From positions 2,784,001-2,848,000 of the forward strand of contig OZ242010.1 in the NCBI GenBank assembly GCA_965204745.1: a stretch of DNA of 64,000 nucleotides. The letters are read 5' to 3'. This document shows positions 407-64,000 of this stretch, piece by piece. Within the stretch, counting starts at the first letter, position 1. Every line of letters begins with the position of its first letter. The position numbers and the translations under genes are program-made. The notes beneath the pieces were generated by a model that saw only the letters and a program-made list of their open reading frames with translations, was not told the origin of the DNA and ran no database searches. The stretch is from Candidatus Latescibacterota bacterium. Lineage in GTDB: Bacteria > Latescibacterota > UBA2968.

Positions 407-1240
407 TTAAAACTGATAGGAATAATACAGCGCGATGCCGTGTTCTTTCGCATAAGCCGCAACGGGTTCAGACGAGATCATATGCGTGATGAGAACGGGC
501 AAGACATTTTCAAACTGAGGCCTCAGGGGCTTGAGCCTGCGGTTGATAAATCGTTCGATGTGATTGGCGGACAACTGACTCTTGCTCTCGCCGAGGATGA
601 CCACCTCGCGCCCATTTTCGCGCCCTTTCCCATAAATGTTCACCTCGAGGGAACGGCCCCTATTATCCGTGAGATAGGTGCGAATGAGTTGGCCCTGCAC
701 CTCAATGCCATAGTCGGCCTTGAGGAGCGCAGGCAGTGCGCGATAGGCCACATTTTCGAGCGTATAACCCACGGTCATCGAGAGGCCGCCAAGTTGTCTG
801 CGGGTTTCTCGATGAGCACCGATCAAGTCGTTGAGCGTCTGTTCGGTGCGCGCTTGGGCCGCGGTCAACTTTTCAATCGCCGCTTCCACGCGCTCCAGAC
901 GTTCTTCGGTACGCGCTTGGGCCGCGGCCAGTTCATCGATGCGTTCTTCGGTGCGCGCTTGGGCCGCGGTCAATTTTTCAATCGCCGCTTCCACACGCTC
1001 CAGACGTTCTTCGGTGCGCGCTTGGGCCGCGGTCAACTTTTCAATCGCCACTTCCACGCGCTCCAGACGTTCTTCGGTGCGCGCTTGGGCAATCGCCAGT
1101 CTTTTGACCGCATCCTTGAGGTCTTGCATATCGACAGAGGTGGCCAAGCCCGTGCGTTGTTCGTCCAACACCTCGGCGAGAATGGCAACTTGGTCGTCGG
1201 TGAACGCGCTCTCCAATCTGCGTTTCATCTCATGCAACAT
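407..1240 (-). CDS. Coiled-coil repeat protein with C-terminal PD-(D/E)XK-like domain (DUF3782-like architecture)
   Basis: Five AQARTE(E/Q) coiled-coil units, then VGYTLE...EVNIYG...ILGESKSQL. RBS AGGAG upstream. Confidence 0.75.
   Translation of the reverse strand: MLHEMKRRLESAFTDDQVAILAEVLDEQRTGLATSVDMQDLKDAVKRLAIAQARTEERLERVEVAIEKLTAAQARTEERLERVEAAIEKLTAAQARTEERIDELAAAQARTEERLERVEAAIEKLTAAQARTEQTLNDLIGAHRETRRQLGGLSMTVGYTLENVAYRALPALLKADYGIEVQGQLIRTYLTDNRGRSLEVNIYGKGRENGREVVILGESKSQLSANHIERFINRRLKPLRPQFENVLPVLITHMISSEPVAAYAKEHGIALYYSYQF
842..1090. repeat. Coding tandem repeat with 63/42/63/63-bp spacing
   Basis: TTCGGT(G/A)CGCGCTTGGGC at 842, 905, 947, 1010 and 1073. Confidence 0.95.
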
Positions 1241-9896: not shown

Positions 9897-10892
9897 CTAT
9901 ATTCCAGTAAGGACGCGATGGCTTTTGTTTAGAAAGAGATGGGAGGGAAGTTTTGATTTTTTGAATTGACCCTCTACATCATACCGCGAGAATTTTGAGT
10001 CAAACTTGCTCACGCTTTCTCCATAGCGCCGACGGGGGGCTTGACGTTGCAATGGCAAGAGACGCTCTAACTCTTGTGGCACAGATGATCGTTGAGCAGT
10101 TCGTAGCTGGTGCAGGTGCCGGAATGACAAGAGACGCTTTAACTCTTGTGGCACAGATGAGTCGGATGATTCTGTCTGCATATCCTCGGGTTGCTCGTCA
10201 ATCACCCGCAAGACGTCAAAGACGCGGGTTTGGGATTCTGTCTGCATGTCCTCGGGTTGCTCGTCAATCACCCGCAAGATGTCAAAGACGCGGGTTTGGG
10301 ATTCTGTCTGCATGTCCTCGAGTTGCTCGCCCCGGTTGAAAACCGAGGATTCCGCCTCCCGTGCTGAATCGGAACGCCAAAGCTCGTCGAACGCACTGTC
10401 TCTTAGCGGTTCCCGTAGCGGTGATTTGATGATGTGATCGTTGACGTTTAGGATGTGGGACTCTGCCGAGCCGGGAGACTTTGAGGAATTAGCAAGGTCG
10501 CCCAAAACGAAACGTCCCCTTTGCGTAACATTTCGGCAGAGGTCCCCCGAATTTTGCATCGCGTCGGCGATTTCTCTATTGATGGTTTCTTTGAGCAGGT
10601 CGCGCAGTTCCTCGGCAATTTTTGGATGTGGGTGGCCCACGAGGGCTTTGTTCGCCAACTCCTTGGCCAAGCGTGGTTGATCGCAGTCCAAAGCCAGCCA
10701 ACCTGCGCTGCGGTGTAGTATGGACCAACTCAGCCCGTTCTGATCGTTCAGTGCGTCGATCGCGTTCAGTTCAAATTTCAACGCCTGTTCAAAGAACTCC
10801 GTTGCCCGTTTCTCGTTGCCTCGCCGCCGTTCCATAACAGCGTGGTCAACGCATTCCATTGCCTTGTTGTGAAGATCACTAACGTTGCCCAT
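9897..10892 (-). CDS. Small TPR-like helical domain protein with a repeat-containing low-complexity C-terminal extension
   Basis: N-terminal ~100 aa LHNKAM...SILHRSAGWLALDC...IAEELRDLL. Overlaps the upstream gene end; RBS GAGGAG. Confidence 0.7.
   Translation of the reverse strand: MGNVSDLHNKAMECVDHAVMERRRGNEKRATEFFEQALKFELNAIDALNDQNGLSWSILHRSAGWLALDCDQPRLAKELANKALVGHPHPKIAEELRDLLKETINREIADAMQNSGDLCRNVTQRGRFVLGDLANSSKSPGSAESHILNVNDHIIKSPLREPLRDSAFDELWRSDSAREAESSVFNRGEQLEDMQTESQTRVFDILRVIDEQPEDMQTESQTRVFDVLRVIDEQPEDMQTESSDSSVPQELKRLLSFRHLHQLRTAQRSSVPQELERLLPLQRQAPRRRYGESVSKFDSKFSRYDVEGQFKKSKLPSHLFLNKSHRVLTGI
10056..10330. repeat. Coding repeats: ~2.5 x 66 bp, plus 2 x ~33 bp spaced 72 bp apart
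   Basis: GATTCTGTCTGCAT at 10168, 10234 and 10300 (EDMQTESQTRVFD units). CAAGAGACGCT(C/T)TAACTCTTGTGGCACAGATGA at 10056 and 10128. Confidence 0.93.
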
Positions 10893-13479: not shown

Positions 13480-13593
13480 GCCCAACCCCCTTCGGTGAGA
13501 CGTAAGACGGGAGAGGTGAGGCAACCCCGCCACACCGCCCAAGTGGTCAGTGGTCAGTGGTCAGTGGTCAGTGGTCAGTGGTCAGTCCCCGCC
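13480..13593 (+). repeat. Composite dispersed repeat ending in an (AGTGGTC)6 heptamer array
   Basis: Homologous in inverted orientation to the element at 41654-41683 + 42869-42973, whose array unit is AGTTGTC. Confidence 0.9.
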
Positions 13594-19507: not shown

Positions 19508-19774
19508 GACCTATCCCCCGGCCCCTTTCCTGCGAGGAAAGGGGAGTAAAGTCCCTTTGATGGCTTAATCAATGGCTGTTTTTAAGAGCATTGCGCGAGG
19601 GCATAAAGCGATTGAAAATCCCTCACTCCATCCCTCGCAAAGCCCATCCGTGGCTGTTTTTAAGGGCGTTGCGCGAGGGCATAAAGCGATTAAATATCCC
19701 TCATCAATCCCCTCGCAAAACCGCTCACAGTTCCCCCCTTCCTCAAAGGAAGGGGGGGCTAGGGGGGGTAGGTC
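19508..19774. repeat. Palindrome-ended repeat with an internal ~78-bp tandem duplication
   Basis: GACCTATCCCCCGGCCCC...GGGGCTAGGGGGGGTAGGTC ends. Duplicated TGGCTGTTTTTAAG...CCCTCGCAAA at ~19573 and ~19651. Inverted relative at ~51700-51915. Confidence 0.75.
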
Positions 19775-21924: not shown

Positions 21925-24447
21925 ATGGTCAAAAAAATTTCCCTCCTCGGCCTTTTGCTCGCCCTGTCGATAGCCGCAGACGCTTATGTGCGTCAAACCC
22001 ATCGCAATGAGCGGGGCAACATTATCTACATTCGCTGGGCCGAGCCGAGGGCCGAGGCCGGGATTCCCTTTGCGGTCGATGCGGGCAGTTTCCCCTTTCC
22101 CAAAGCCGCCGTGGTGCGGATTGCACAAAAAGGGTTTAACGACTGGGCCGCCGTGCCATCGGCATTTATCACCTTTAAGGACGAAACGGAAATTCCCGCG
22201 TCGCCTCCCAACCCGCGCAATGAGATTGTGTACGACGAGACCGGCAACATCATCAACGCGCCCGAGGGCACCGGCGTCATCGCCATAGCGCGCCTTAGCT
22301 GGAACCCCGCCGGGTTGATCGTGGAGGCGGATATTATTTTTAATGGCCGGGATTTTACGTTTTCAATAGACGACAACACCACGCCTGAAAACCGAATCGA
22401 TCTCCAAGGCGTGATGACGCACGAGATCGGGCATCTCTTGGGCTTGGATCACTCGCCGTTGGTCGGCACCCCAAGCACGCGCCCGACCATGTATCCGTAC
22501 AACACGCCCGAAGCACCGCGCCAAGAGCGTTCACTCGAACCCGATGACCACGCGGGGATAACCGCGATCTATCCCGTGGAGGGCCTAACCGGCGGCATAA
22601 GTGGGCAGATCATCGGTCCGAATGGCCCGGCCTTTGGCGTGCATGTGGTGGCGTATCGGGCAGACACACAGACCTTCGTCGCCAGTGCGCTGTCGGGTTC
22701 CGCGGGCACGGGCGAAGATGGACGATACGAAATTCTCGGCCTGCCCCCGGGGGATTATCACATTGCGATTGAACCCCACAACTGGCGGATTTCGCCGGAG
22801 AATTTCGGCGGCATTTTTTCTCAACCATTCGATGGGGATTTTGAAAAAGAGTTCTACGACAATGTGTTTCAGCAGAAAAATGCCCAAATCGTGCGCGTTG
22901 AAATTGATCGGGTTATATCCAATAAAAACTTTGCCCTCGGCCCTTCTGCGCCCGGCGCGCCCTTTATCAAAAAACCCAATTTTCCATTCCACACGCCCGA
23001 CCCCAATGGCCCCTATCGCTTTTCGGCAACCGTGACCGACAACAAGGGCATCGCGGCGGTTGAACTGCACTATCGCATCAACGGGGGGCCGATACGGGTG
23101 GAGCCAATGACCAGTGCGCCCGGCGATTCGGTTTTTGTAGGTGAAATTAGCGGCCAGCGCGCAGGCTCAATCATCCACTATCGCCTGATCGCACGCGATA
23201 GCGATGGCAATGAAACGCCGATGCCCGCGCTGGAACTGTCCATGCTTCAATTCGAGGTGCTCGTCCTCTCCGGCTCGCCCGTGGCCTTTGTCGCATTGCG
23301 GGATGCAAACGCGCTGGCCGTGATCGACATGGGGCCGGGCAAAGAAGTGGCGCGTATCCCCACCGGCATCTCGCCCTTGAGCGTGTTGATGACGCCGGAT
23401 GAACGCTATATTTTTGTCGCCAATAGCGGATCGGAAAGAGGTGCATCTGACAATCGGATCACCGTGATCGAGACCGCCACGCATCGGGTCGCCGCGACCA
23501 TTGAAGTCGCCACCAACCCCTTGGATCTCGCTTTGAGCGCGGACGGGGAGTTGCTCTATGTCACCCATGCAGAGGAGAAGACGGTTTCGATCATCGAGGT
23601 CGCAACCTTGACCGCGCGGCCTTCTCGCATTCGCGTGCCGCCCGCAGTAGTGCGCGGGCCTTATGGCGTGGCGATCAGCCCAGATGGGGCGCGGCTTTAC
23701 GTGACGGATATCGGCAACAATCAGGTCTTGGTCATAGATACCGCACGCAGGACAACGATTGGGCGCGTCAATGTGATTTCCGAACCCCGATCACTGGTTA
23801 TGTCCGCCGATGGCAGGCGGCTGTACGTATCCGGCGGCGGCTTTAGGACTACGAATGGCGGTATTTCGATAGTCGCGACCGATACAGCGCGTGTGCCCTA
23901 CACAGATGCGTCTCGTTTGGTCGAGACGATTTCCACGGGCGAGTCCGGGATATTTCGCCTTGCCCTATCGCCCGATGGCACTCGGCTATACGCAACGGAC
24001 CGCGTGAACGCGCAGTTGCTCGTCATCGATGTGAACGAAAATCGCATCGTCAAGCGTAGGGATGTTTTGCCGGGCGGTGAAGAATCGCGCGATTTGTTCG
24101 TATCCCCCGATGGGTCGCGGGTGTACGTGACCAACCAAGATTCGGATGAACTGGTCGTTTTTGACGCCGAGTCGCTCAATATTCTGAGAACCCTGCGCTT
24201 AAGCGATAGACCTCGCGGCGTGGCCGTGCGCGCCCAACCGGCCGTGTTTCGGCCCAGGCGAGATGTGTCCGCTCGGGCGGATTTCAATAACGATGGTCAG
24301 GTCGGTTTTCCCGATTTTCTCCTGTTCGTCGCTGCATTTGGCACCGAAAACCCCGATCCGCGCTTTGATTTAGACGACGACGGCAAAGTCGGTTTCAGCG
24401 ATTTTTTGGTATTCGCCGGTGTATTCGGCAAAACGGTTGGCGCGTGA
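21925..24447 (+). CDS. Secreted matrixin-like (M10) metallopeptidase with YVTN beta-propeller and EF-hand/dockerin-like C-terminus
   Basis: Signal peptide; HEIGHLLGLDH with Met-turn TMYP; (S/T)PDG..LYV repeats; DFNNDGQVGFPDF and DLDDDGKVGFSDF. Confidence 0.88.
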   Translation: MVKKISLLGLLLALSIAADAYVRQTHRNERGNIIYIRWAEPRAEAGIPFAVDAGSFPFPKAAVVRIAQKGFNDWAAVPSAFITFKDETEIPASPPNPRNEIVYDETGNIINAPEGTGVIAIARLSWNPAGLIVEADIIFNGRDFTFSIDDNTTPENRIDLQGVMTHEIGHLLGLDHSPLVGTPSTRPTMYPYNTPEAPRQERSLEPDDHAGITAIYPVEGLTGGISGQIIGPNGPAFGVHVVAYRADTQTFVASALSGSAGTGEDGRYEILGLPPGDYHIAIEPHNWRISPENFGGIFSQPFDGDFEKEFYDNVFQQKNAQIVRVEIDRVISNKNFALGPSAPGAPFIKKPNFPFHTPDPNGPYRFSATVTDNKGIAAVELHYRINGGPIRVEPMTSAPGDSVFVGEISGQRAGSIIHYRLIARDSDGNETPMPALELSMLQFEVLVLSGSPVAFVALRDANALAVIDMGPGKEVARIPTGISPLSVLMTPDERYIFVANSGSERGASDNRITVIETATHRVAATIEVATNPLDLALSADGELLYVTHAEEKTVSIIEVATLTARPSRIRVPPAVVRGPYGVAISPDGARLYVTDIGNNQVLVIDTARRTTIGRVNVISEPRSLVMSADGRRLYVSGGGFRTTNGGISIVATDTARVPYTDASRLVETISTGESGIFRLALSPDGTRLYATDRVNAQLLVIDVNENRIVKRRDVLPGGEESRDLFVSPDGSRVYVTNQDSDELVVFDAESLNILRTLRLSDRPRGVAVRAQPAVFRPRRDVSARADFNNDGQVGFPDFLLFVAAFGTENPDPRFDLDDDGKVGFSDFLVFAGVFGKTVGA

Positions 24448-41540: not shown

Positions 41541-41683
41541 GGGAATCGTCCTTTCGCAGTCGGAAATTAGCGGAACGAGTTACAAATAACAGGTGGGCTT
41601 GAAACGCACCCCATTGTACCGCCCGTTCATCGGTGCTTTTGTTTTTGGGCGGAGGCGGGGACTGACAACTGACAACTGACAAC

Positions 41684-42868: not shown

Positions 42869-42984
42869 ACTGACAACTGACAACTGACAACTGACAACTG
42901 ACAACTTGGGCGGTGGCGGGGTTGCCTCACCTCTCCCGCCTTACGTCTTACGTCTCACCGAAGGGGGTTGGGCAGGGGGGGCGT

Positions 42985-61903: not shown

Positions 61904-62401
61904 TTAGGGTTCTTGGATCGCGGAGTCCCGCAACAGGGCCACGGTGCCGGTGCGCGCGATTTCCAGGATGCCAAAAGAACGCAGCATGCCGATGATGGCC
62001 TGAATTTTGTCGTAGCGGCCCGTGACTTCAATGGTCATGGAATGCGTGCTCACATCCACGATATTTGCGCGGAACACTTCGGCGATTTGAATGACCTCTG
62101 CGCGCGTGGCTGTATCGGCCTTGACTTTGATGAGCACGAGTTCGCGTTCGACAAATTTGCCCTGCGTGATGTCGATCACGCGGATGACGTCGATGAGGCG
62201 GTCCAATTGCTTGACCACCTGCTCGAGCACGCTGTCGTCACCGCCGACAACGATGGTCATGCGCGAGATGCTCGGGTCTTCTGTTTCGCCGACGGACAAG
62301 CTGTCGATGTTGAATCCGCGACTGGAGAAAAGCCCCGAGATGTTGCACAAGACGCCAAAATGGTTTTCGACCAGCGCGCAAATCGTGTGTTTTTGAGTCA
62401 T
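61904..62401 (-). CDS. ilvN: Acetolactate synthase small (regulatory) subunit
   Basis: LVENHFGVL, RGFNIDSL, EQVVKQL, RELVLIKV, EIARTG. Confidence 0.95.
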   Translation of the reverse strand: MTQKHTICALVENHFGVLCNISGLFSSRGFNIDSLSVGETEDPSISRMTIVVGGDDSVLEQVVKQLDRLIDVIRVIDITQGKFVERELVLIKVKADTATRAEVIQIAEVFRANIVDVSTHSMTIEVTGRYDKIQAIIGMLRSFGILEIARTGTVALLRDSAIQEP

Positions 62402-62500
62402 GAGAATTTCCCGAATCCATGAGGTGACAACGGCCAGTGAATCGATCAAAGGCTCTGTCCTGTTGTGGCGTTGTCGTGAAAGTGGGGAAAGAGCCTGCGC

Positions 62501-62656
62501 TTAGTGAACGAGAATAGCGAGGGAAAGGCCCGCGATGAGGAGCAGGTGCAGACGCGCGCGACCTGCAATGGAAAGGCGCGAAATGCGGATGACCTGCTGT
62601 CGCAGGTGTCCACCGCTTCGCAAGGTGGAGATCGCCAATGTGGGGATTGAGCGCAT
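62501..62656 (-). CDS. Candidate Ile/Leu/Val-rich leader peptide (51 aa)
   Basis: 20 of 51 residues are I/L/V, including 10 of the last 16. Lies between a promoter and ilvN. Confidence 0.5.
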   Translation of the reverse strand: MRSIPTLAISTLRSGGHLRQQVIRISRLSIAGRARLHLLLIAGLSLAILVH

Positions 62657-62699
62657 GGCAGAACTAGGGAATTGCGTGGTTGCGAATTTCAGATGGCAT

Positions 62700-62729
62700 A
62701 ACCTACGCAACCTAAGTGGAATATGTCAA
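62700..62729 (-). promoter_or_regulatory. sigma70-type promoter of the ilvN-leu operon
   Basis: TTGACA-N18-TAGGTT. Confidence 0.55.
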
Positions 62730-62750
62730 GGAAAAAAACAGCGAAGGGAA

Positions 62751-62821
62751 GGTGAGAGGTGAGAGGCAAGACGGGAGAGGCAAAGGAGGCAAGAGGTGAG
62801 AAGGCCACCCCTCTCCCCTCT
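62751..62821. repeat. Heptamer arrays flanking the IS110 insertion
   Basis: GTGAGAG GTGAGAG GCAAGAC GGGAGAG..., then inverted CCTCTCC CCTCT|, which continues as TACGTCT at 63994. Confidence 0.75.
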
Positions 62822-62854
62822 TGTATCGTAAGGGAATCGAGATGCCATCTTGAG

Positions 62855-62980
62855 GCTCGGGGAAGGCCGGCCCCTCTTGAGGCGATGACCTTGTAGGTAA
62901 GATAGGCCCCCCGACCGCCGGGTCTATGCCGAAGGTATCTAAGCCCCTTGAGGCTGCATATACAAGACGGTAGACTTGGC
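62855..62980 (+). ncRNA. IS110 bridge RNA (target- and donor-binding loops); boundaries approximate
   Basis: Two stem/internal-loop modules. Guides CCCCTCT (62871-62877), GTAAG (62897-62901), GTATCT (62935-62940) and ATACAAG (62960-62966) match the junctions. Confidence 0.8.
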
Positions 62981-63050
62981 GTCAATGGTCGGGACGCGAC
63001 CCCGAGCGCGCACCAGATCCCTTACAACCCCCTCATCACAGGAGGCCCCC

Positions 63051-63966
63051 ATGTCGAAATCTCACCCCGCTTTTGCCGGCATTGATGTCAGTGCCCGCAC
63101 GTTGTCCGTTGCCCTGTCCAGACCCGGACAAGCTGTCATGCAAGCGACCTTTGCCAATGATCCCCAAGCGCATAAGCGGTTGCTGAAGTGGCTCACGAAG
63201 GGCGGGCACATGGTCTCTGTGTGCCTCGAAGCGACCGGGCTTTACAGTTTGGGGGTGGCCTTGGCCTTGCATCGGCATCGCCACACAAAGGTCATGGTCG
63301 TCAATCCCAAAGCGATGAGCAAGTACGCCCAAGCCTGCATGCAACGGGCGAAGACGGATGCGAAGGATGCGTTGTTGATCCTCGACTATGCCGAGCGCAT
63401 GCCTTTTGTGCCTTGGCAAGCGCCGAGCGAGCAACGGCTTCAACTGCAAGCCCTCACCAGACGCATTGACCAACTCAAGCAGGAGATCATCCGCGAACAG
63501 AGCCGCAACCACGCGCAGAGCTACCACATCCGCAGCACACGTCTCATCGCACGCGATATTCAGGTGAATATTCGACACTTCAAACGCCGGATTGCATACT
63601 TGGAAAGCCAAGCCCTCGATCTCGTTTTGCACGATGAGCCCCTCAAGCGTGCCTACCAACGCCTCTGCTCGACGCCTGGCATCGCGCAAACGAGTGCCTT
63701 GCGGCTCTTGGCCGAGTTGACCCTTTTGCCAGAGGAGATGCAACCGCCCCAGTGGGTCGCACATGCAGGCCTGGATCCCAAACCCAAACAATCGGAACCG
63801 CCATCCACAAAGACGCATCTCGAAAACCGGGAATAAGTACCTCCGCCATGCCCTCTATATGCCTGCCTGGGTGGCCATCAGACACGAAGGCCATGTCAAA
63901 GCCTTCTATGACCAACTCATCGCCCGCGGCAAGAAACCTTTGCAGGCTATCGTTGCGGTGATGCGA
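63051..63966 (+). pseudogene. IS110 recombinase, frameshifted and C-terminally truncated
   Basis: GIDVS, CLEATG, KTDAKDA. Frame breaks near 63795-63812 at the catalytic QS(G); ISKTGNKYLRHALYMPA...AIVAVMR continues in another frame, then similarity stops. Confidence 0.85.
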
Positions 63967-64000
63967 TGGTCCGTTCCAAACTTTTGCGTATCTTACGTCT

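What the first reader, a model, noticed from the sequence alone, without database searches (positions are those of the whole stretch)
62805..64000. IS110 bridge RNA readable by eye and programmed against the genome's heptamer repeats
Seen: the junctions give an empty target CTCCCCT-CT-TACGT, in register with the CCTCTCC/CGTCTTA heptamer family also found at 13.5, 18.3, 28.0, 30.5 and 42.9 kb, and a circle donor TGCGTAT-CT-TGTAT. The 5' noncoding end folds into two modules. One is GGCC[CCCCTCT..GAGG/CCTT hairpin..GTAAG]GGCC, whose guides match the left target plus core and the reverse complement of core plus right target. The other is GTCTA.GCCG[GTATCT..AGCC/GGCT hairpin..ATACAAG]CGGTAGAC, whose guides match the donor. 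Known: IS621-type bridge RNAs work this way with a CT core and target REP sequences; from memory the IS621 donor is ACAGTATCTTGTAT, nearly the same. Inference: a natural RNA-guided recombinase retargeted to short tandem heptamer arrays. This is a new specificity rather than a new system class, and a possible driver of repeat-anchored rearrangement here.
Basis: partly seen in the sequence, partly recalled or inferred. Interest (0 to 1): 0.78.

Follow-up and report, generated by a model that had tools for sequence, protein, structure and literature searches.

The report
Bridge-RNA insertion sequence targeting heptamer arrays
The window holds a damaged copy of a small mobile element that uses its own guide RNA to insert into the genome's seven-base repeat arrays; it works like the known IS621 system and differs only in its target.

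Summary
The core reading holds, but part of the observation does not. Window 62822-63966 is one copy of a 1293-bp IS110-family element. The genome has 52 full-length copies, 31 of them identical. The 335-aa protein passes NCBIfam's 'IS110 family RNA-guided transposase' model and matches the solved IS621 and ISCro4 recombinases.

The 267-nt left end folds as an IS621-type bridge RNA. Its stems covary across 40 relatives. The target loop reads CCCCTCT and, as a reverse complement, CTTACCT.

Of the 45 copies with these guides, 40 have CCCCTCT on the left, against a 6.5% background. The perfect site CCCCTCT|TACCT is occupied in 20 of 25 cases, the one-wobble site in 16 of 81, and worse sites in 0-5%. 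Sub-lineages, a second genome (18 copies) and 34-36 loci from other taxa change guides and flanks together.

The window copy is defective. It differs from the consensus only by deletions, has two frameshifts, and lacks its last 108 bases. So the inferred donor (TGCGTAT-CT) and empty target (…TACGT) are wrong. The real ones are AGAGAGTAT-CT-TGTAT and CCCCT-CT-TACCT.

This is a new member of a known kind, of moderate interest.

The parts
62755..62821 (.). Target heptamer array. It has minus-strand units (62755-62782), a short spacer, then two plus-strand CCCCTCT units (62808-62814 and 62815-62821). The last CT (62820-62821) is the recombination core.
   Evidence: Sequence. The same left unit CCCCTCT flanks 40 of 45 copies with these guides.
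62822..63966 (+). Defective copy of the 1293-bp IS110-family element (consensus positions 1-1185, 40 nt shorter than expected). It differs from the consensus only by deletions and lacks the last 108 nt, including the right end.
   Evidence: Over the aligned core (62836-63966): BLAST gives 1131 window bases over 1143 columns with 0 substitutions; pairwise alignment; 52 full copies.
62837..62853 (+). 5' stem-loop of the bridge RNA. Its loop is shortened in this copy.
   Evidence: Folds. A 5' stem-loop is part of the published architecture (PMC11208160 passages).
62865..62908 (+). Target-binding loop. Basal stem GGCC/GGCC; left target guide CCCCTCT(TG) 62871-62879; hairpin 62879-62892; right target guide AGGTAAG 62895-62901; then AUA (62902-62904), a candidate handshake guide complementary to the donor's TAT.
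   Evidence: The handshake reading is inference by analogy with A81/U82 of IS621 (PMC11208158 passages).
62910..62993 (+). Donor-binding loop. Outer stems 62910-62925 with 62972-62993; inner stem GCCG/CGGT; left donor guide GTATCT 62935-62940 (AGAGTATCT in intact copies); hairpin AGCC/GGCT 62942-62955; right donor guide ATACAAG 62960-62966.
62842..63029 (+). Full match to the covariance model built here from 40 related left ends. The window copy was not in the training set, but near-identical sister copies were.
   Evidence: 123.6 bits, E 5.8e-36. Intact copies score 153.7 bits.
62855..63007 (+). Long-range helix GCTCGGGG (62855-62862) with CCCCGAGC (63000-63007) that encloses both loops.
   Evidence: MFE fold. 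Helix 1 has 5 of 8 pairs with compensatory changes but only 63.9% of cells paired, so it is weaker than the other helices.
63052..63966 (+). Transposase gene remnant. It starts with ATG at 63052. Single-base deletions after 63792 and 63802 shift the frame, giving a stop at 63834-63836. The last 29 codons and the stop are missing.
   Evidence: ORFs, alignment. The intact 335-aa ORF is P0001. Only residues 1-252 match in the window.
63967..64000 (-). Not part of the element. This is coding sequence of a neighbouring AAA-ATPase paralogue. It includes an anomalous 15-nt stretch (63989 to 3 nt past the window end) that mimics 'right end + heptamer + left end'.
   Evidence: Paralogue alignment; Pfam AAA_22 for the gene; contigs of X1 and X2 lack the 11 extra bases.

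Best explanation
The window carries one damaged copy of an active 1293-bp IS110-group insertion sequence that transposes by bridge-RNA-guided recombination, as IS621 does.

Inferred mechanism: the element excises as a circle. Joining the right end (…CTTGACC-N14-CT) to the left end (TGTATCTT…) would place a TTGACC -35 box 17-18 nt from a TATCTT -10 box. This would drive a roughly 190-nt RNA from the left end.

Shown by sequence statistics: that RNA has a 5' stem-loop and two internal-loop modules. In the first module, CCCCUCU matches the left half-site plus the CT core, and AGGUAAG pairs with core plus right half-site (CT-TACCT). In the second module, AGAGUAUCU and AUACAAG do the same for the element's own ends (AGAGAGTAT-CT-TGTAT).

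The DEDD/Ser recombinase (D12, E60, D103, D106 and S248 are conserved) would then exchange strands at CT. This places the element between a CCCCTCT unit and a TACCTCT or TGCCTCT unit of the genome's (YRCSTCT)n arrays.

Sister lineages with changed guides use other unit junctions. The window copy cannot move. It lacks its right end and an intact recombinase gene, and its defects are probably consensus or assembly errors.
For: Protein:
- Pfam PF01548 (1.2e-24) and PF02371 (4.8e-20).
- NCBIfam NF033542 at 213.8 bits against a cutoff of 140.
- Full-length matches to ISCro4 (7.6e-40) and IS621 (5.8e-36) chains, with the catalytic D, E, D, D and S aligned (residue names from PMC11208158 passages).

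Copies: 52 full-length, 31 of them identical. 51 have open 335-aa frames without stops.

RNA fold, for my 40-pair structure on 40 left ends:
- 83.4% of cells are paired, against 74.1±0.6 in shuffles (0 of 500 reach it).
- 27 of 40 pairs show compensatory change.
- Slid controls give 51% or less.
- RNAalifold independently finds the same loop-closing stems and hairpins.

Targeting in this genome, for the 45 copies with the main guides:
- The left unit is CCCCTCT in 40. The background is 6.5% of 3045 unit pairs.
- The right side is TACCT in 24 and TGCCT in 17.
- Occupancy is 20 of 25 perfect sites, 16 of 81 one-wobble sites, 4 of 87 TACCTCT|TACCT sites, and 0 of 38, 0 of 18 and 0 of 45 for three other junctions.
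- All 52 insertions have the same orientation relative to the heptamer strand.

Co-variation:
- Copy 1297036+ has guides TCCCTCT and (as reverse complement) CT-CACCT, and exactly those flanks.
- The 88% lineage has guides YGCCTCT and CT-TACTT. Its flanks are CGCCTCT 3, CACCTCT 1 and TACCTCT 1 on the left (the two misses are rG·dT-compatible), and TACTT in 4 of 5 on the right.
- In G018, 18 of 18 copies have a YRCCTCT left unit for guide CGCCTCT, and 14 of 18 have CCCGT on the right for guide CT-CCC.
- Across taxa, the left guide matches the left flank at 7.03 of 9 positions against 4.75±0.18 permuted (34 loci, 0 of 2000). The right guide matches at 4.17 of 7 against 2.24±0.18 (36 loci, 0 of 2000).

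Donor: the guides match the real ends in all 52 copies, except that the left donor guide of copy 1297036+ has one mismatch. A TTGA-type box at a fixed distance from the right end is shared by most relatives printed.
Against: - No RNA, circle junction or activity was observed. No listed run is on record as RNA, and Rfam 15 has no matching family.
- Copy 602782+ carries guides TGCCTCT and CT-TACTT but sits at TCCCTCT|CACCT, with 1 and 2 mismatches. Seven of the 45 main-guide copies have imperfect half-sites: 4 with left TACCTCT, 2 with right CCCGT and 1 with right TGCCC. So base-pairing is not the whole story, or RNAs act in trans, or flanks were swapped by recombination between copies.
- The long-range closing helix is weakly supported (63.9% paired).
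- The shuffle controls ignore relatedness. In one search the right end was misplaced in 4 loci (L047, L054, L065, L067) and not found in 4 of 40.
- The promoter is a consensus reading in a phylum whose promoters are uncharacterised here.
Confidence: 0.9

Rival explanations
1. The guide-flank matches are a by-product of low-complexity, pyrimidine-rich heptamers. The element simply prefers arrays, by protein recognition or DNA structure, and the RNA plays no part in site choice.
For: All array units look alike (YRCSTCT), so a 7-nt match is easier to obtain than in random DNA. Many left flanks sit next to a GGTGGCC-like box or in inverted arrays that can form hairpins (14 of 52). A preprint abstract reports a target stem-loop as an extra determinant for ISPpu10.
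Against: Within arrays, the left unit is CCCCTCT in 40 of 45 insertions against a 6.5% background. Occupancy falls from 80% to 20% to 5% to 0% with mismatch number. Guides and flanks change together in three sub-lineages, in G018, and in unrelated non-heptamer targets of other taxa.
Confidence: 0.04
2. The window copy is a real, decayed and 3'-truncated relic produced by a deletion that fused it to the ATPase gene. It is not an assembly error.
For: The junction uses a GCGA microhomology shared by both partners. The genome holds about 25 other fragments of the element. Contigs cannot prove absence of a rare form.
Against: There are zero substitutions but 7 deletion events in 1131 aligned bases, and 4 of the 5 single-base losses fall in two-base runs. 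This is the signature of a poorly polished long-read consensus, not of decay. An exact 110-bp tandem duplication lies just beyond the window end. No contig in 4 runs bridges 63966/63967. Contigs identical to the ATPase flank lack the 11 extra bases and run on into other sequence.
Confidence: 0.25
3. The RE-like 15-mer at 63989-64003 (TATCT-TACGTCT-TGT) is a genuine footprint of an earlier insertion or excision of this element inside the ATPase gene.
For: It reads as right end + one heptamer + left-end start, the arrangement seen between the tandem pair at G000:C1:1122880-1122888. It is unique in the genome.
Against: Known bridge recombination is described as scarless (PMC11208160 passage). The site has no guide match. 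Contigs of X1 and X2 for the same locus lack it.
Confidence: 0.1

Closest known systems
IS621 of Escherichia coli (IS110 group), the founding bridge-RNA recombinase (PMC11208160, PMC11208158; passages read)
   Same: Two-domain DEDD + Ser recombinase (E 5.8e-36 over the full length). Long left end and very short right end. RNA with a 5' stem-loop plus target and donor internal loops. Left guides identical to the top strand and right guides complementary to it, each including a CT core. Donor AT-CT-TGTAT identical at the nine positions named in the paper's passages. AU after the right target guide, like handshake A81/U82. A -35 box in the right end. Multi-copy intergenic repeats as targets.
   Different: The target is a junction between two units of a tandem heptamer array, not a REP palindrome. 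The right target guide is longer (5 non-core positions, against 4 paired bases G77-G80 in IS621). A covarying long-range helix encloses both loops. Copy number is 52, with several guide variants in one genome. No experimental data exist.
ISCro4 transposase (PDB 9t56)
   Same: Best solved-structure match (E 7.6e-40, residues 7-326).
   Different: Only the depositor's molecule name was seen. No paper on it was read, and its RNA and target were not compared.
ISPpu9 / ISPpu10 of Pseudomonas putida (abstracts seen: PMC12288879 in the listing; 10.64898/2026.03.19.712850)
   Same: IS110 elements that insert into many copies of one intergenic repeat.
   Different: Their targets are REP-type or stem-loop sequences. 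Sequences were not compared here.
IS1111-group elements with seekRNA (named in the abstract of PMC13604230; group features from PMC11208160 passages)
   Same: Same recombinase superfamily and RNA-guided site choice.
   Different: IS1111 elements carry the RNA in a long right end and have longer subterminal inverted repeats. This element has the IS110-group layout (left end 267 nt; 18 nt after the stop codon).

Membership tests
IS110 family (IS110 group) bridge recombinase element | N-terminal DEDD RuvC-like domain (PF01548) and C-terminal Tnp domain (PF02371) | tested here: met
   PF01548 at 87.3 bits and PF02371 at 72.2 bits, both above cutoff. NF033542 'IS110 family RNA-guided transposase' at 213.8 against 140. 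Tested on the intact copy P0001. The window copy matches residues 1-252 only.
IS110 family (IS110 group) bridge recombinase element | Catalytic D, E, D, D and Ser (IS621 D11, E60, D102, D105, S241) | tested here: met
   D12, E60, D103, D106 and S248 (followed by G249) align with the IS621 chain and are invariant in 16 homologues. Residue roles are taken from PMC11208158 passages.
IS110 family (IS110 group) bridge recombinase element | Long non-coding left end, short right end, RNA encoded in the left end | tested here: met
   Left end 267 nt (L017:1459-1725). The stop codon lies 18 nt from the element end.
IS110 family (IS110 group) bridge recombinase element | Insertion at a conserved dinucleotide core present at both junctions, with no longer target duplication | tested here: met
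   CT on the right in 52 of 52 copies and on the left in 51 of 52 by script. The 52nd copy has a 1-nt insertion at left-end position 3.
Bridge RNA (IS621 type) | [quoted passage not shown] | tested here: met
   The guide columns of loop 1 vary, while loop 2 (GGAGTATC…ACAAG) is nearly invariant across 40 sequences.
Bridge RNA (IS621 type) | Loop 1 guides match the left target (same strand) and right target (complement), core included, and covary with them | tested here: met
Bridge RNA (IS621 type) | Loop 2 guides match the element's own right and left ends | tested here: met
   AGAGTATCT equals the right end …AGAGTAT-CT. The reverse complement of ATACAAGA is T-CT-TGTAT, the left end. In the window copy the left donor guide is shortened by a 1-nt deletion and the right end is absent.
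Bridge RNA (IS621 type) | Match to a curated covariance model of the family | not testable with these tools
   Rfam 15 gave no relevant match at E up to 10. The authors' model is not at hand. A model built here (R1) finds the window copy at 123.6 bits, but it was trained on sister copies.
Bridge RNA (IS621 type) | Promoter rebuilt across the RE-LE circle junction; RNA expressed and bound by the recombinase; RNA-dependent recombination | not testable with these tools
   Only the sequence reading is available: TTGACC in the right end, TATCTT in the left end, with 17-18 nt between them once joined. A TTGA box is conserved in relatives.

The most novel reading that the evidence does not exclude
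The element and the heptamer arrays have expanded together, and target supply drives natural reprogramming. At least four guide variants coexist, each on its own unit junction. The two genomes of the genus with heptamer-targeting copies (G000 with 52, G018 with 18) are also the only two of 41 with hundreds of four-unit array matches (738 and 220; all others have 15 or fewer). One bold version follows from every unit ending in the CT core: recombination between cores seven bases apart could itself add or remove units, so the element would help build its own landing pads.
Probability: 0.15. Interest if true: 0.6.

Novelty: new member of a known kind. Interest (0 to 1): 0.36.

Why it matters
This is a clean natural example of bridge-RNA programming. 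One genome supplies 52 independent insertions, a graded relation between mismatch number and site occupancy, and sister lineages whose guides and targets changed together. That gives an in-genome estimate of natural mismatch and wobble tolerance, and a ready set of intact orthologues (335 aa, 1293 bp) with short, well-defined targets for testing.

It also shows that tandem heptamer arrays, not only REP palindromes, can serve as multi-copy landing sites. And it flags a very repeat-rich genome in which 52 near-identical copies could promote rearrangement.

It does not reveal a new mechanism. The published survey already predicted bridge RNAs and matching targets for thousands of IS110 elements (PMC11208160 passages).

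Tried and rejected
- Rfam 15 over 62000-64000 at E up to 10 gave only chance-level microRNA and sRNA names.
- Sequencing runs: no RNA holder was listed, so nothing can be said about expression.
- Laid contigs could not decide whether the single-base deletions belong to this copy. Contigs over those places may come from any of the other 51 copies, and no listed piece spans the whole stretch.
- Literature searches for IS110 together with heptamer, tandem repeat, heptanucleotide or STRR returned nothing relevant. The 'tandem repeat' passages in 10.1101/2025.10.25.684509 concern tandem cargo copies.
- I did not fetch IS621 DNA, so its RNA was not aligned with this one.
- I considered that TGTACTTTGC just right of the window might be the left end of a second IS110 element. 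I rejected this because it is coding sequence shared by about 10 ATPase paralogues.
- My first count of the 88% lineage's right flanks (5 of 5 TACTT, in my notes) was corrected to 4 of 5.
- The printed label says '>=2 units', but the code counted 3 or more. 47 of 52 copies meet this.
- The weak model hits at window 22560-22727 (8.4 bits, E 0.22) and G000:C1:949217-949365 (26 bits) were not followed.
Full report
WHAT IS IN THE WINDOW

The window ends with an IS110-type element.

The gene that follows (ATG at 63052) is broken. One frame stops at 63836 and a second runs on from 63763.

THE ELEMENT IN THE WHOLE GENOME

The window is G000:C1:2784001-2848000 of a single 5.48-Mb contig. BLAST of the region against the genome shows a 1293-bp element, TGTATCTTGG…AGAGAGTATCT, counting one CT core. 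There are 52 full-length copies, of which 31 are identical to the reference copy, 14 are 96-99.9% identical, and 7 are 88.5-95.7% identical. About 25 fragments are also present.

The window copy is the odd one out. It matches only consensus positions 43-1185 by BLAST. Over those 1131 bases it has no substitution but 12 deleted bases in 7 events. A further 28 bases are missing near the left tip.

Five of the deletions are single bases. Three lie in the RNA gene (after 62879, 62934 and 62967). Two lie in the recombinase gene (after 63792 and 63802) and cause the frameshifts.

THE RIGHT JUNCTION IS NOT A JUNCTION OF THE ELEMENT

Homology stops at 63966. In every full copy the sequence runs on with AAGTTGCTCC… for 108 more bases to …CTTGACCTTTTAAGAGAGTAT-CT.

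In the window, 63967-63988 instead aligns with about ten paralogues of a minus-strand AAA-ATPase gene (Pfam AAA_22). Those paralogues read …GCGGAGCACTTTGCACTCG. The window has 15 bases (TATCTTACGTCTTGT) where they have GAGC.

I laid Logan contigs of four runs on the locus:
- Contigs of X1 and X2 that match the ATPase flank with 0-1 other letters lack exactly 11 bases there and continue leftwards into sequence unlike the window.
- Every contig that reaches 63966 from the element runs on with the consensus AAGTTGCTCC.
- Every contig over the five single-base deletions carries the missing base, though such contigs may stem from other copies.

An exact 110-bp tandem duplication lies just past the window end.

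Three things make a locally poor consensus the likelier explanation, at about 0.75: the deletion-only differences, 4 of 5 single-base losses falling in two-base runs, and the unsupported junction. A true relic is not excluded. Either way the copy as written cannot move, because it has no right end and no intact recombinase.

THE PROTEIN

The intact ORF (P0001, 335 aa) has the two IS110 domains. It passes NCBIfam NF033542, 'IS110 family RNA-guided transposase', at 213.8 bits against a cutoff of 140.

It matches the solved ISCro4 and IS621 recombinases over their whole length, at E 7.6e-40 and 5.8e-36. D12, E60, D103, D106 and S248-G249 align with the residues that PMC11208158 names as catalytic (D11, E60, D102, D105, S241; passages). 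They are invariant in 16 homologues. 51 copies have open frames.

Homologues are numerous: 3473 at E ≤ 1e-30. The closest genome records are titled Latescibacterota MAGs, at 84, 77 and 76% identity.

THE RNA

The 267-nt left end folds with a 5' stem-loop and two internal-loop modules.

I aligned the corresponding 185 nt of 40 left ends. Five came from this genome and 35 from other records, chosen from the 80 loci as those in which a script found the donor-guide motif. The guide columns of the first loop vary, while the second loop is nearly invariant. This is the pattern described for bridge RNAs (PMC11208160 passages).

RNAalifold recovers the basal stem and hairpin of loop 1, the outer stem of loop 2 and its hairpin. 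17 of its 26 pairs show compensatory changes.

For a 40-pair structure that I wrote from the reference fold:
- 83.4% of cells pair, against 74.1±0.6 in shuffles (0 of 500 reach it).
- 27 pairs have compensatory changes.
- Sliding the partners by 1-3 columns gives 30-51% paired.

These controls overstate significance for related sequences, as the tool warns, and the structure was derived from one member.

A covariance model from this alignment finds the window copy at 123.6 bits (E 5.8e-36) and nothing else credible in the window. It finds 60 places in the genome.

TARGETING

The genome (56.5% G+C) holds 654 arrays of three or more units of a YNYBTYT heptamer family, up to 49 units long. A shuffled megabase holds none.

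All 52 copies sit with these units on the same strand, and 47 have at least three units summed over the two flanks.

For the 45 copies with guides CCCCTCT(T) and AGGTAAGA:
- The left unit is CCCCTCT in 40, TACCTCT in 4, and shifted by a 1-nt insertion in 1. CCCCTCT is 6.5% of left units among 3045 adjacent unit pairs.
- The right flank is TACCT in 24, TGCCT in 17 (an rU·dG wobble), CCCGT in 2, TACTT in 1 and TGCCC in 1.

Occupancy falls with mismatch:

| Site | Occupied |
|---|---|
| CCCCTCT\|TACCT | 20 of 25 |
| CCCCTCT\|TGCCT | 16 of 81 |
| TACCTCT\|TACCT | 4 of 87 |
| CCCCTCT\|TGCGT | 0 of 38 |
| CCCCTCT\|TACGT | 0 of 18 |
| CCCCTCT\|CCCCT | 0 of 45 |

CO-VARIATION

Within the genome:
- Copy 1297036+ has guides TCCCTCT and AGGTGAGA, and flanks TTCCCT-CT and CT-CACCT.
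- The five copies of the 88% lineage have YGCCTCT and AAGTAAGA. Their left units are CGCCTCT (3), CACCTCT (1) and TACCTCT (1). Their right flanks are TACTT (4) and TACCT (1).
- One copy (602782+) disagrees with its own guides and fits those of 1297036+. It may have been moved in trans or be a recombinant.

In a second genome of the genus (G018), 18 copies carry CTCGCCTCT and AGGGAGA. All 18 have a YRCCTCT left unit, 14 have CCCGT on the right, and 17 lie in arrays.

Across other taxa, whose targets are not heptamers, guides track flanks:
- Left guide: 7.03 of 9 positions against 4.75±0.18 after permuting flanks (34 loci, 0 of 2000).
- Right guide: 4.17 of 7 against 2.24±0.18 (36 loci, 0 of 2000). 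This is despite four loci where my script misplaced the right end and four where it found none.

Examples with perfect 8-9-nt matches are L036, L038, L039 and L040.

DONOR AND PROMOTER

The second loop's AGAGTATCT equals the real right end plus core. The reverse complement of its ATACAAGA is T-CT-TGTAT, the left end.

The three bases after the right target guide (AUA) are complementary to the donor's TAT before the core. This resembles the handshake guide of IS621; it is inference from PMC11208158 passages.

The right end carries TTGACC, overlapping the stop codon, 14 nt from the core. After circle formation this would stand 17-18 nt from TATCTT in the left end. A TTGA-type box at the same place is shared by most relatives printed. 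This fits the published junction promoter (PMC11208160 passages) but is only a sequence reading.

COMPARISON AND NOVELTY

Every defining feature of an IS110-group bridge element that sequence can test is met. Expression, binding and activity cannot be tested here.

What differs from IS621 is the target (a junction between two units of a tandem heptamer array), a somewhat longer right target guide, an enclosing long-range helix of modest support, and the high copy number with several guide variants in one genome.

I found no paper linking IS110 to heptamer arrays in the library. The supplements of the survey paper, which list thousands of natural targets, could not be seen. I therefore file it as a new member of a known kind.

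WIDER PATTERN (A LEAD ONLY)

Among 41 genomes of the order:
- Four-unit array matches number 738 in G000 and 220 in G018.
- G001 has 15, G019 has 14, eight genomes have 1-2, and 29 have none.
- Close relatives of the recombinase were found in G000 (52), G018 (18), G016 (8) and G036 (3).

The one G016-like locus examined (L031) has different guides and a non-heptamer flank. Arrays thus exist without the element, but they are abundant only where a heptamer-targeting lineage lives. With two related genomes this shows nothing by itself.

VERDICT

The window copy is defective and probably mis-assembled. The system is known and the specificity is new. Interest is moderate.

Noticed in passing
window 13542-13586; 41661-41683; 42869-42906: Perfect tandem arrays of two other heptamers: AGTGGTC x6.4, and ACTGACA x3.3 and x5.4. 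They often lie next to the YRCSTCT arrays and G-rich boxes, so the genome has several heptamer families.
   Followed up: partly
G000:C1:2848022-2848243 (just right of the window; L001:2702-2923): Exact 110-bp tandem duplication inside the AAA-ATPase gene next to the element. The gene has about 10 paralogues at 80-89% identity. It may be another sign of local mis-assembly.
   Followed up: partly
G000:C1:1121591-1124180: Two full copies in tandem, separated by a single TACCTCT unit. The second copy therefore used a site formed by the first copy's right end plus one heptamer.
   Followed up: no
G000:C1:2459530 (+): A roughly 30-nt string, TGTATCTTGTATCTTGGAAGTATCT, that looks like left-end starts joined to a right-end tip. 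It could be an extreme internal deletion or a footprint.
   Followed up: no
flanks of the five 88%-lineage copies, e.g. G000:C1:2197889, 288678, 216675: All five sit in nearly the same composite repeat: a G-rich box GGGGCGGTGGG, a four-unit mini-array, then TTGGGGATAGGGCTTGCGGT. The arrays are therefore part of larger REP-like intergenic elements. A GAAGGGGGTTGGGCGGGG box recurs at other array ends.
   Followed up: no
window 62741-62821: The target array is an inverted pair: minus-strand units followed by plus-strand units around GAAGGCCAC. It can form a long imperfect hairpin. The same arrangement recurs at several other insertion sites.
   Followed up: no
window 842-1090; 10168-10329; 19573-19719: Longer tandem repeats of 63/105, 66 and 78 bp, unrelated to the finding.
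   Followed up: no
G000:C1:949217-949365 (-): Weak match (26 bits, E 9.6e-5) to the bridge-RNA model outside any copy of this element. It may be the left end of a more distant IS110 relative.
   Followed up: no
runs X5-X8, X11, X15, X16: Runs that hold half or more of the stretch's sampled words are labelled sponge metagenomes. Marine metagenome runs hold about 0.29 of the words. Only X5 of these was laid.
   Followed up: no
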